This document shows positions 25,001 through 28,000 of a DNA stretch of 64,000 bases, one piece after another. How positions within the stretch are numbered: position 1 is the stretch's first letter; every line of letters begins with the position of its first letter. The stretch lies in assembly GCF_003019035.1 (NCBI RefSeq), contig NZ_CP027447.1; one strand, 5' to 3'. The stretch is from Escherichia coli. GTDB taxonomy: Bacteria > Pseudomonadota > Gammaproteobacteria > Enterobacterales > Enterobacteriaceae. Made by a program: the position numbers.

Positions 25001-28000
25001 GTCCGTCTCTACGCTATTGATATTGAAAAAAATAAGGAGAGTACCGTGCGTATAGGTATCGATTTAGGCGGCACCAAAACTGAAGTGATTGCACTGGGCG
25101 ATGCAGGGGAGCAGTTGTACCGCCATCGTCTGCCCACGCCGCGTGATGATTACCGGCAGACTATTGAAACGATCGCCACGTTGGTTGATATGGCGGAGCA
25201 GGCGACAGGGCAGCGCGGAACGGTAGGTATGGGCATTCCTGGCTCAATTTCGCCTTACACCGGCGTGGTGAAGAATGCCAATTCAACCTGGCTCAACGGT
25301 CAGCCATTCGATAAAGACTTAAGCGCGAGGTTGCAGCGGGAAGTGCGGCTGGCAAATGACGCCAACTGTCTGGCGGTTTCAGAAGCAGTAGATGGCGCGG
25401 CAGCGGGAGCGCAGACGGTATTTGCCGTGATTATCGGCACGGGATGCGGCGCGGGCGTGGCATTCAATGGGCGGGCGCATATCGGCGGCAATGGCACGGC
25501 AGGCGAGTGGGGGCACAATCCGCTACCGTGGATGGACGAAGACGAACTGCGTTATCGCGAGGAAGTCCCTTGTTATTGCGGTAAACAAGGTTGTATTGAA
25601 ACCTTTATTTCGGGCACGGGATTCGCGACGGATTATCGTCGTTTGAGCGGACATGCGCTGAAAGGCAGTGAAATTATCCGCCTGGTTGAAGAAAGCGATC
25701 CGGTAGCGGAACTGGCATTGCGTCGCTACGAGCTGCGGCTGGCAAAATCGCTGGCACATGTCGTGAATATTCTCGATCCGGATGTGATTGTCCTGGGGGG
25801 CGGGATGAGCAATGTCGACCGTTTATATCAAACGGTTCCGCAGTTGATTAAACAATTTGTCTTCGGCGGCGAATGTGAAACGCCTGTGCGTAAGGCGAAG
25901 CACGGTGATTCCAGCGGCGTACGCGGCGCTGCGTGGTTATGGCCACAAGAGTAAAAAACGTAGGCAATTGGCGCATCATGCCTGATGCGACGCTTGCCGC
26001 GTCTTATCAGGCCTGCAAAATGTGCCGGAACCGCAGGCCGATAACGCGTTCATGTCGCATCCGGCAATAAGCAACGCGCAACGTGACTGCAATCTACCCC
26101 AGTGGTTTCGCCAGCACCGGACTATCCGCCGCTTGCTGGCGCTTATAGCGACCATACAGCAGCAACGACGACATCGCAGCAAACGAAAGCAGGGCGGCAG
26201 GCAGCGCCACGTAATTATATGCCAGCCCCAGCGTCAGCATCATACCACCGCAATATGCGCCGACGGCGCTACCGAGGTTAAACGCTATTTGCCCACCTGC
26301 GGCACCTAATAACTCTCCGCCTTTGGCGTTTTGCAGTAACAATATTTGCAGAGGTGCTGAAAGGGCAAATAATCCCGCGCAACAAATAAAAGCAAAAATA
26401 AGCGACGTTATTTTCATGCCGCCGAAGAAAAAGAGCATCAACAGTGCCAGTACAATGATAAAGTCAGTCACTGCTGCAATGCGCAGTGGTGAATAACGTC
26501 CTGAAATCCGGCCACTTAGCACATTCCCCAGCACCATCCCTAGCCCCACTAACATCATAATAAAGGTCATCGCCGTTTCCGAAAAACCGGAAATAAACAT
26601 CATGTATGGCTTTACGTAGCTGAACCAGGCAAACACACCTGCGTTGCCAAACATCGTAGCGGCGAAAATTAACCACGGGGCAGGGCTGCGTAAAAAGTGA
26701 AATTGTTCGCGTAGTTTTCCTTTCGCCTCGTCGCGAATATCCGGCACCCAAAAATAGACCGATGCCATCACCGCAATATTAAAAACAGCGATCAACAAAA
26801 AGGTGTAGCGCCAGCTAAATTCCTGACTTAAATACGTTCCCAGTGGAATGCCCAGCAAATTGGCGACTGTCATCCCGGAAACCATCCCTGCCACGGCGGC
26901 GGTGACTTTGCCGGGTTTGATAATTTTTGATAACACGATCGCTCCGACGCCAAAAAATGCGCCATGCGGAAAGCCGGATACCAGCCGACCAATGGCGAGC
27001 ATCAGGTAAGACGAAGAGAGCGTGAACATGGCGTTGCCAATGACGCACAACGCCACCAGAAACAATAAGATATGTTTGAGTGAGTAGCGACTGGAAAAAA
27101 GCGCGATGATTGGCGCACCGACCACCACCCCCAGCGCATAATACGAGATCATATGCCCGGCGGCAGGAATCGAAATTCCTACGTTATGCGCCAGCTCCGT
27201 GAGCACGCCCATAATGCCAAATTCGGCCATCCCCAAACCAAACGTACCCAGAGCCAAAGATAAAATGACTTTTTTCATACCACCATCACAACCACCAGAA
27301 CGGCTACTAATCACCGTAGCCAATAAAGTGATAGCTTGCAGGATAACGACCAGCGAGGCCAAGAGATAATTCGCCCCTCTGTATTCATTATCCTGCTGAA
27401 TAGTTATTTCACTGCAAACGCACTTTCCAGTTTGCTGTAGCCCAGTCCATTGATCTTTTTCACTTTGATCTGCACCGGAATACGCTCTTTCATCGCTTCA
27501 ACGTGGCTAATCACACCGATGGTTTTGCCACTGGCATTCAGGGCATCCAGCGCATCAAGGGCGGTATCCAGCGTTTCGCTATCCAGCGTGCCAAAACCTT
27601 CATCAAGGAACAGCGAGTCAATACGCGTTTTATGGCTGACCAGATCCGAAAGCGCCAGCGCCAGCGCCAGACTGACGAGGAAACTTTCGCCGCCGGAAAG
27701 GGTACGGGTATCGCGTACCGCATCTGCCTGCCAGGTATCAACAACCTCGACTTCCAGCGCCTCGCTGGCTTTGCGCTGTAACAGATAGCGCCCGTGCAGC
27801 CGGGTAAGTTGCTGATTAGCGAGATGGACTAAATTATCCAGCGTCAGCCCCTGGGCAAACTTGCGGAATTTATCGCCCTCTTTGGAACCTATTAGCGAAT
27901 TCAGATATCCCCAGTCCTCAACCTGCTGCGTCATTTGAGCAATTTGCTGCATTAAGGTTTGTTGTTGCTGACGGTTGTCTGCATCCTGCTTCAGCTGCTG

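What the first reader, a model, noticed from the sequence alone, without database searches (positions are those of the whole stretch)
25978..26066. REP pair (BIME-like) between convergent mak and araJ
Two REP-like palindromes sit in the 140-bp gap between the 3' ends of mak and araJ. This is a typical BIME arrangement that can stabilise mRNA 3' ends and bind gyrase or IHF. It is ordinary for E. coli, but it marks a possible strain-variable site.
Basis: partly seen in the sequence, partly recalled or inferred. Interest (0 to 1): 0.15.

Follow-up and report, generated by a model that had tools for sequence, protein, structure and literature searches.

The report
Ordinary REP pair between mak and araJ
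The 139-bp gap between the convergent E. coli genes mak and araJ holds one copy of the well-known REP/BIME repeat (a Y-type and a partly decayed Z-type palindrome in inverted orientation); it is ordinary, and its copy number and integrity vary among strains.

Summary
Window 25979-26066 holds two inverted REP elements, tail to tail with a 16-nt linker, in the 139-bp mak/araJ gap.

- **REP1 (25979-26016):** a near-canonical Y-type REP. It scores 29 against the published Y sequence (shuffle maximum 17) and forms a hairpin of -21 kcal/mol.
- **REP2 (26033-26066):** Z-type by sequence (score 22-24, shuffle maximum 16). In this strain it has lost its own palindrome (-8 to -12 kcal/mol, no better than shuffles).
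- **GTAG:** both copies carry GCAG instead of the conserved tetranucleotide.
- **Pair:** together they still fold as one long hairpin (-44 to -46 kcal/mol).

The architecture is BIME-2-like, not BIME-1. There is no IHF site, the linker is short, and the locus is amplified in other strains. The K-12 orthologue is already listed as a BIME-2 with a single gyrase cleavage site.

Among 5,426 complete E. coli genomes, roughly 56-58% have one unit and about 42% have two. About 3% carry the decayed allele class. Rare strains have a deletion or a REP-specific IS1397 inserted in REP1's loop. Citrobacter has no REP here.

The most likely effect is a stem-loop barrier that protects the 3' ends of both convergent mRNAs. 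Gyrase binding is possible but weakly supported. IHF binding, intrinsic termination and translational stalling are not supported. This is already known and of low interest.

The parts
25046..25954 (+). mak (fructokinase) coding sequence, with stop TAA at 25952-25954. Its transcript would run into the REP pair.
   Evidence: ORF list. RefSeq annotation of the identical strain SCU-301, mapped to window coordinates.
25979..26016 (-). REP1, Y-type. In the REP orientation (5' tetranucleotide first) it lies on the minus strand, so it reads as an iREP on the plus strand. The stem covers 25980-26012 and the tetranucleotide is GCAG (CTGC on the plus strand, 26013-26016) instead of GTAG. It starts 24-25 nt after the mak stop codon.
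   Evidence: Alignment score 29 to the published Y sequence, shuffle maximum 17. Hairpin of -21.3/-21.8 kcal/mol, z -4.7/-5.2. The orthologous copy in strain M2021-10044802/2-E has the REP-specific IS1397 inserted in its loop.
26017..26032 (.). A 16-nt tail-to-tail linker (AAAATGTGCCGGAACC). It forms the loop of the composite hairpin and has no IHF consensus.
   Evidence: Sequence. IHF pattern search. Fold of the pair.
26033..26066 (+). REP2, Z-type and degenerate. Relative to canonical alleles at this locus it has GCAG for GTAG, a 1-nt deletion (CCGG to CCG), AAGG to AACG, and CACGCC to CATGTC. It ends 27 nt before the araJ stop codon.
   Evidence: Alignment score 22-24 to the Z2 sequence and the 224-REP consensus, shuffle maximum 16. 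Own hairpin lost: -8.4/-11.6 kcal/mol, z about 0. Stepwise allele series.
25979..26066 (.). One BIME unit, which folds as a single long inter-REP hairpin on either strand.
   Evidence: MFE of -43.6 (plus strand) and -45.7 (minus strand) kcal/mol, z -4.85/-4.65, with 0 of 200 shuffles as stable.
26094..27278 (-). araJ (MFS transporter) coding sequence, with its stop codon at 26094-26096. It is convergent with mak.
   Evidence: ORF list. RefSeq annotation of SCU-301.

Best explanation
This is one unit of the E. coli REP/BIME repeat family, of the BIME-2 kind. A Y-type REP and a Z-type REP sit in inverted, tail-to-tail orientation with a short linker. The unit was acquired within the Escherichia lineage, in the gap between the convergent genes mak and araJ.

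Its most likely effect (inferred, not shown here) is at the RNA level. Neither gene has an intrinsic terminator. Transcripts from each side probably read into the pair, and 3'-to-5' exonuclease trimming stops at the stable stem-loop. That would define and stabilise the 3' ends of both mRNAs.

In this strain the Z copy has lost its own hairpin, and both copies have lost the GTAG needed by the REP transposase TnpA-REP (RAYT). The unit is therefore probably no longer mobilisable. It acts, if at all, as a single composite hairpin of about 88 nt.
For: Identity as REPs (shown):
- Alignment to published Y and Z sequences lies far above the null.
- The core is massively repeated in every E. coli genome.
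- The location is extragenic.
- The orthologous REP1 is a natural target of the REP-specific IS1397 (specificity stated in PMC1525189).

BIME-2 kind (shown):
- The two REPs are inverted with a 16-nt linker and no IHF site.
- Two tandem units occur in K-12 and in B2-type strains.
- The K-12 orthologue at NC_000913.3 411077-411269 corresponds to the entry 'BIMEs2 410303-410493' in Table DS3 of PMC6379681.

Acquired within Escherichia (shown): two Citrobacter genomes have mak and araJ about 10 nt apart with no REP.

RNA barrier (inferred):
- No intrinsic terminator is predicted on either strand.
- The composite hairpin is -43.6/-45.7 kcal/mol.
- The literature reports that transcribed REPs resist exonucleases. 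It also reports that REPs mark 24% of Rho-dependent transcript 3' ends, and that deleting 3' REPs shortens mRNA half-life (PMC6061677; PMC12306157).
- The four REP2 substitutions of this lineage kept the composite fold as stable as before. Only about 1% of random sets of four substitutions do so on both strands.

Loss of mobilisability (inferred): any single change in GTAG abolished TnpA-REP binding and cleavage in vitro (PMC3479197).
Against: - No transcript data for this locus were available, so the 3'-end role rests on analogy with other REPs.
- The element is dispensable in evolution. It is absent in Citrobacter, half-deleted in strain WW2, interrupted by an IS in another strain, and variable in copy number.
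- Covariation across 11 unit alleles is not significant for either the two-hairpin or the long-hairpin structure (37/500 and 56/500 shuffles).
- The simulation was designed after seeing the data.
Confidence: 0.9

Rival explanations
1. Neutral relic of a selfish repeat. The pair has no function at this locus and is a decaying remnant of RAYT-driven BIME spread, tolerated because it sits in a harmless 3' gap.
For: - REP2 degenerates stepwise across alleles: canonical in CS18F and 2012C-4221, then TUM14771, then HCM-27C-1, then this window.
- GTAG is lost in both copies.
- Strain WW2 has a 12-bp deletion that removes REP1's 5' arm.
- One strain carries an IS1397 insertion.
- Copy number is 1 or 2 among strains.
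- Citrobacter has no REP at this site.
Against: - The composite hairpin stability was retained through four substitutions, which about 1% of random sets achieve.
- One inter-REP pair changed from A-U through G-U to G-C.
- REP1 is nearly invariant across the alleles examined.
Confidence: 0.35
2. DNA-level role. The pair is a gyrase binding and cleavage site that relieves the positive supercoiling built up between two convergent transcription units.
For: - BIME-2 elements are over-represented among gyrase cleavage sites, and Y-type REPs are preferred (PMC6379681).
- The K-12 orthologue of this BIME had one cleavage site with ciprofloxacin.
- The gene arrangement is convergent.
Against: - The K-12 element had no cleavage site in the other three conditions, and only a subset of BIME-2 elements are cleaved, mostly long arrays.
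- This strain has only one unit, with a decayed Z copy.
- Nothing was tested in this strain.
Confidence: 0.2
3. BIME-1 (RIP/RIB) element that recruits IHF.
For: Only the general statement that some BIMEs bind IHF (PMC3333891).
Against: - BIME-1 is defined by a long, conserved L linker that often carries an IHF site, and it occurs as a single copy.
- Here the linker is 16 nt.
- There is no exact match to WATCAANNNNTTR anywhere in the gap.
- The locus is tandemly amplified in other strains.
- The K-12 orthologue is listed under BIME-2, not BIME-1.
Confidence: 0.03
4. Translational down-regulation of mak or araJ by ribosome stalling at a REP placed close to the stop codon.
For: The mechanism is reported for REPs within 15 nt downstream of an ORF (PMC12306157).
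Against: REP1 starts 24-25 nt after the mak stop and REP2 ends 27 nt before the araJ stop. Both are outside the 15-nt limit.
Confidence: 0.03
5. Bidirectional intrinsic (Rho-independent) terminator, or a distinct small RNA such as naRNA4.
For: - The hairpin is strong.
- There is a sub-threshold Rfam match to naRNA4 at 25941-26013 (39.2 bits, E 2.7e-5).
Against: - No terminator-like site (stem followed by a T run) was found on either strand.
- The naRNA4 match is below the family's gathering score of 59.5, and is expected simply because naRNA4 derives from a REP cluster (PMC4550694 abstract).
- No promoter-like site lies within the gap.
Confidence: 0.05

Closest known systems
E. coli K-12 mak-araJ BIME-2 (NC_000913.3 411077-411269; 'BIMEs2 410303-410493' in Sutormin et al. 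2019, Table DS3)
   Same: It is the orthologous locus, between the same convergent genes, with the same Y and Z REP types, orientation and linker family.
   Different: K-12 has two tandem units (four REPs, 244-bp gap). This strain has one unit (139-bp gap), its Z copy is degenerate, and both tetranucleotides are GCAG.
BIME-2 family (Y plus Z2 REPs, short linker, tandem arrays), as defined by Bachellier/Gilson and summarised in Ton-Hoang et al. 2012 (PMC3333891)
   Same: A Y REP and a Z REP in inverted orientation, a short linker, no IHF site, variable tandem copy number among strains, and intergenic location at gene 3' ends.
   Different: There is a single unit here. The Z1 versus Z2 subtype could not be settled from the sequences available. 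The Z copy no longer forms its own hairpin.
BIME-1 / RIP / RIB elements (Y plus Z1 REPs with an IHF-binding L linker)
   Same: Two inverted REPs.
   Different: There is no long L linker and no IHF consensus, and the locus is amplified in other strains.
REP mRNA stabilisers, e.g. those studied by Newbury et al. 1987 and by Khemici and Carpousis 2004 (cited in PMC6061677)
   Same: A G+C-rich stem-loop in a 3' untranslated region, with no U tract, able to block 3'-to-5' exonucleases.
   Different: Nothing was measured at this locus. Here the barrier would be one composite hairpin rather than two REP hairpins.

Membership tests
REP / palindromic unit, Y type (REP1) | Sequence similarity to the Y consensus | tested here: met
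   Local score of 29 against the 37-nt Y sequence of Nunvar et al. 2010. Shuffles of the gap gave mean 9.35, sd 1.4, maximum 17. It is the top hit in the 64-kb window.
REP / palindromic unit, Y type (REP1) | Imperfect palindrome of 30-40 nt able to form a stem-loop | tested here: met
   MFE of -21.3/-21.8 kcal/mol, z -4.7/-5.2, with 0 of 200 shuffles as stable.
REP / palindromic unit, Y type (REP1) | Conserved GTAG tetranucleotide 5' of the stem foot | tested here: not met
   This strain has GCAG (CTGC on the plus strand, 26013-26016). In the alleles examined here, K-12 unit 1, ST131, S1-NGR-02-A and CS18F have GTAG.
REP / palindromic unit, Y type (REP1) | Extragenic location and many copies per genome | tested here: met
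   It lies in the 139-bp gap. The core matches 25-73 places per genome (capped) in 5,425 of 5,426 genomes.
REP / palindromic unit, Z type (REP2) | Sequence similarity to the Z consensus | tested here: met
   Score of 22 against Z2 (Nunvar 2010) and 24 against the 224-REP consensus quoted in PMC12306157. The shuffle maximum was 16.
REP / palindromic unit, Z type (REP2) | Imperfect palindrome able to form its own stem-loop | tested here: not met
   MFE of -8.4/-11.6 kcal/mol, z +0.26/-0.37, with 114 and 66 of 200 shuffles as stable. The canonical Z sequence gives -20.9/-21.3.
REP / palindromic unit, Z type (REP2) | GTAG tetranucleotide | tested here: not met
   GCAG at 26033-26036. Most other alleles have GTAG.
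REP / palindromic unit, Z type (REP2) | Z1 versus Z2 subtype | tested here: inconclusive
   The original consensus figures (Gilson 1991, Bachellier 1997) are not held. Two papers label near-identical REPtron REPs as Z2 and z1.
BIME-2 | A Y REP and a Z REP in inverse orientation, separated by a short linker | tested here: met
   Tail-to-tail orientation with a 16-nt linker.
BIME-2 | Occurs as tandem multiple copies, with number varying between strains | tested here: met
   There is one unit here, but two units in K-12-type strains (1129 records at 99% identity or more to the K-12 query) and in B2-type strains (1072 records).
BIME-2 | Preferential binding and cleavage by DNA gyrase | not testable with these tools
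   The K-12 orthologue had one ciprofloxacin cleavage site and none in three other conditions. There are no data for this allele.
BIME-1 (RIP/RIB) | Long conserved L linker carrying an IHF site; single copy | tested here: not met
   The linker is 16 nt. WATCAANNNNTTR is absent from 25955-26093. The locus is amplified in other strains.
Intrinsic terminator | G+C-rich stem followed directly by a U tract | tested here: not met
   No terminator-like site was found in 25700-26400 on either strand.
naRNA4 (Rfam RF02564) | Score at or above the family's gathering threshold | tested here: not met
   39.2 bits against a gathering score of 59.5.
REPs that regulate translation (Liang, Rudd and Deutscher 2015, as summarised in PMC12306157) | REP within 15 nt downstream of the stop codon | tested here: not met
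   The distances are 24-25 nt from the mak stop and 27 nt from the araJ stop.

The most novel reading that the evidence does not exclude
The two REPs of a BIME may co-evolve as one composite hairpin. In this lineage the Z copy lost its own palindrome. Yet three of its four substitutions created Watson-Crick pairs with the Y copy: A-U to G-U to G-C, G-G to G-C, and A-C to A-U. Overall stability was kept, which only about 1% of random sets of four substitutions achieve. That would indicate selection (or templated correction) acting on the inter-REP helix. It would be locus-specific evidence that the composite stem-loop, not the individual REP, is the functional unit.
Probability: 0.2. Interest if true: 0.3.

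Novelty: already known. Interest (0 to 1): 0.1.

Why it matters
It matters little. REP/BIME elements have been known for about 40 years, and this very locus is already catalogued as a BIME-2 in K-12.

The practical value is modest:
- The mak/araJ gap is a small length-polymorphic marker, with gaps of 127, 138-142, 244-246 or 268 bp, or an IS1397 insertion. It roughly tracks lineages.
- The allele series at this locus shows REP decay step by step, and possibly compensatory change between the two REPs.

Tried and rejected
1. Single template-switch (quasi-palindrome correction) as the origin of the clustered REP2 changes. Rejected because intermediate alleles (TUM14771, HCM-27C-1) show the changes arose in at least three steps. 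A copied tract would also have introduced the T and GA of REP1's complement, which are absent.
2. IHF site. There is none in the gap.
3. Intrinsic terminator or promoter in the gap. There is none.
4. Rfam. The only match is a sub-threshold hit to naRNA4, explained by shared REP sequence.
5. Covariation test of two local hairpins against one long hairpin on 11 unit alleles. Both fit (97.7% and 92.8% of cells paired) and neither is significant.
6. Z1 versus Z2 typing. The original consensus papers are not held and the accessible papers disagree on naming.
7. Literature specific to the mak/araJ REPs. Nothing relevant was found. The supplement of the 3'-end mapping paper is not held.
8. Counting double-unit genomes by query coverage with the K-12 gap. 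This failed because single-unit alleles align to both query copies, so identity bands were used instead.
It yielded only a few useful enterobacterial outgroups, and no E. fergusonii or Salmonella.

Full report
**What is there**

The window carries rdgC (-), mak (+), araJ (-) and sbcC (-). The region is 100% identical to E. coli strain SCU-301. mak ends at 25954. The araJ stop codon is at 26094-26096. The gap between them is 139 bp.

The gap holds two elements:
- REP1, 25979-26016: TGCCTGATGCGACGCTTGCCGCGTCTTATCAGGCCTGC
- a 16-nt linker, AAAATGTGCCGGAACC
- REP2, 26033-26066: GCAGGCCGATAACGCGTTCATGTCGCATCCGGCA

The two elements are in inverted orientation, tail to tail.

**Is it more than chance, and does it match the REP consensus?**

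- The REP head motif occurs 5 times in the window against 0.52 expected.
- REP1 was aligned to the published E. coli Y REP (Nunvar et al. 2010, Table 1) and scores 29.
- REP2 scores 22 against the published Z2 REP. It scores 24 against the 224-REP consensus quoted in PMC12306157.
- One thousand dinucleotide shuffles of the gap give means near 9, sd 1.4 and a maximum of 16-17. These are also the best or near-best tiles in the whole 64-kb window.
- The 96-bp core finds 25-73 places per genome (capped at 40 pieces per record) in 5,425 of 5,426 complete E. coli genomes.

**Anatomy in this strain**

REP1 is a sound hairpin (-21.3/-21.8 kcal/mol, z about -5).

REP2 alone is not. Its MFE is -8.4/-11.6 kcal/mol, which is indistinguishable from shuffles. 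The canonical Z sequence gives -21.

Both copies carry GCAG where the family has the conserved GTAG. In vitro, changing any one base of GTAG abolished binding and cleavage by the REP transposase TnpA-REP (PMC3479197). This unit is therefore probably no longer a substrate. That is an inference.

Together the two REPs fold as one long hairpin of -43.6 (mak sense) and -45.7 (araJ sense) kcal/mol. The z-scores are about -4.7, and 0 of 200 shuffles are as stable.

**Type of BIME**

PMC3333891 summarises the definitions:
- BIME-1 is Y plus Z1 with a long L linker, often carrying an IHF site, and occurs as a single copy.
- BIME-2 is Y plus Z2 with a short linker and occurs in tandem copies.

Here the linker is 16 nt. 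No IHF consensus occurs in the gap. Other strains carry two tandem units.

The K-12 cluster lies at NC_000913.3 411077-411269. Allowing for the 776-bp numbering offset, it coincides with 'BIMEs2 410303-410493, 190 bp' in Table DS3 of Sutormin et al. 2019. That entry records one gyrase cleavage site with ciprofloxacin and none in three other conditions.

The element is thus already catalogued as a BIME-2. The Z1 versus Z2 subtype could not be settled from the accessible sources.

**Variation among strains**

An evenly spaced sample of 59 chromosomes gave these gap lengths:

| Gap length | Chromosomes |
|---|---|
| 140-142 bp | 28 |
| 244-246 bp (K-12 type, two units) | 14 |
| 268 bp (ST131 type, two units) | 9 |
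| 139 bp (this allele) | 2 |
| 138 bp | 2 |
| 127 bp | 1 |
| only partly aligned | 3 |

Identity bands with a K-12 query agree:
- 1129 records are K-12-type double units.
- 1072 records are B2-type double units.
- About 3,270 records are mostly single units.

About 175 records (3%) carry a core at least 95% identical to this one.

The single-unit alleles form a series in REP2:
1. CS18F and 2012C-4221 have the canonical sequence.
2. TUM14771 has lost one G.
3. HCM-27C-1 and WW2 add GTAG to GCAG, G to C, and C to T.
4. This window and SCU-301 add one more C to T.

WW2 has also lost 12 bp of REP1. Strain M2021-10044802/2-E has an IS1397 inserted exactly in the loop of REP1. IS1397 is an insertion sequence known to target REPs (PMC1525189).

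**Outgroups**

- Two Citrobacter genomes have mak and araJ convergent about 10 nt apart, with no REP.
- E. albertii lacks araJ and has a single Z-like REP after mak.
- Pseudescherichia and Superficieibacter have REP-like palindromes ending in GGCCTAC, whose stems differ from the E. coli Y and Z sequences, at the same place.

The BIME at this site was therefore gained within the Escherichia lineage.

**How it most likely works**

No intrinsic terminator or promoter is predicted in the gap. Both stop codons are more than 15 nt from the REPs (24-25 and 27 nt). That excludes the ribosome-stalling mechanism reported for REPs close to a stop codon.

The literature supports transcribed REPs as barriers to 3'-to-5' exonucleases. 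They define stable 3' ends after Rho-dependent termination further downstream (PMC6061677; PMC12306157).

I infer the same here, for both convergent mRNAs. The composite hairpin would be the barrier in this strain. This step is inferred, not shown.

A DNA-level role as a gyrase site is possible but weakly supported. A neutral-relic reading remains a serious rival, given how freely the element is lost, decayed or interrupted.

**A small extra observation**

Three of the four REP2 substitutions in this lineage create Watson-Crick pairs with REP1 in the long hairpin. These are pairs 37-58, 23-70 and 12-80 of alignment A1. They do so at the expense of REP2's local stem.

Starting from the inferred ancestor (-43.1/-43.2 kcal/mol), four random substitutions in REP2 give mean MFEs of -38.0/-39.7. 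They match this strain's stability on both strands in only 48 of 4000 draws (uniform spectrum) or 41 of 4000 (same spectrum).

This hints at constraint on the composite hairpin. But the test was designed after seeing the data, and formal covariation is not significant. A single template-switch event is excluded by the intermediate alleles.

**Verdict**

It is wrong or unsupported on IHF, weak on gyrase, and it missed the decay of REP2. The element is already known and of low interest.

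Noticed in passing
window 23957-23992: A single REP lies 17 nt beyond the rdgC stop: GTACGCCGGATAAGACGCGGCAGGCGTCGCATCCGGCA. 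It is a hybrid, with a Z-like outer stem and a Y-like inner stem, and has GTAC instead of GTAG. It probably corresponds to the K-12 entry 'BIMEs2 408277-408313' in Sutormin et al., Table DS3; this was judged from position only and not checked by coordinates.
   Followed up: partly
window 53447-53482: A solitary Y-like REP: GCCTGATGTGACGCTTGTCACGTCTCATCAGGCCTGC. Its inner stem carries paired changes relative to REP1 (GCGAC/GCGTC to GTGAC/GTCAC), and it also has CTGC rather than CTAC.
   Followed up: no
window 61401-61490: Another tail-to-tail REP pair: ...TCAGATGCGGCATGAACGCCTGATTCGGCCTAC, then a 24-nt A+T-rich linker, then GTAGGCCTGGTAAGCGTAGCGCAGCAGGCA. Both tetranucleotides are intact. There is no exact IHF consensus, and the BIME type was not determined.
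   Followed up: no
L011 1487-2602 (E. coli M2021-10044802/2-E, NZ_CP163451.1): A partial IS1397 (IS3 family, annotated as lacking its N-terminus) is inserted exactly in the loop of the orthologous Y REP: GACGCTTGC | IS | CGCGTC. This is a natural example of REP-targeted insertion at this locus.
   Followed up: partly
L009 200-327 (E. coli WW2, NZ_CP081881.1): A 12-bp deletion (CCTGATGCGACG) removes the 5' arm of REP1. The only hairpin left spans the 3' arm of REP1 and REP2 (-29/-33 kcal/mol).
   Followed up: partly
L003 and L010 (ST131 O25b:H4 and UTI89), second and first BIME units: Local compensatory changes keep the REP hairpins intact. In unit 2 the Y stem changes from GACGC/GCGTC to GACAC/GTGTC. 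In unit 1 the Z loop-closing pair changes from T-A to C-G (GGCGTTCACGCC to GGCGCTCGCGCC).
   Followed up: partly
L034 about 3473-3530 (E. albertii); L095 and L039 (Pseudescherichia vulneris, Superficieibacter electus): In genera that lack araJ at this position, mak is still followed directly by a REP-like palindrome that differs from the E. coli Y and Z sequences, before sbcC. Either the mak 3' end is a recurrent landing site, or an old REP there has co-evolved with each genome's REP family.
   Followed up: partly
window 25941-26013: A sub-threshold Rfam match to naRNA4 (RF02564) scores 39.2 bits on the plus strand and 24.9 on the minus strand. It starts 38 nt upstream of REP1, inside the end of mak, so some flank beyond the REP itself resembles the REP325 unit.
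   Followed up: no
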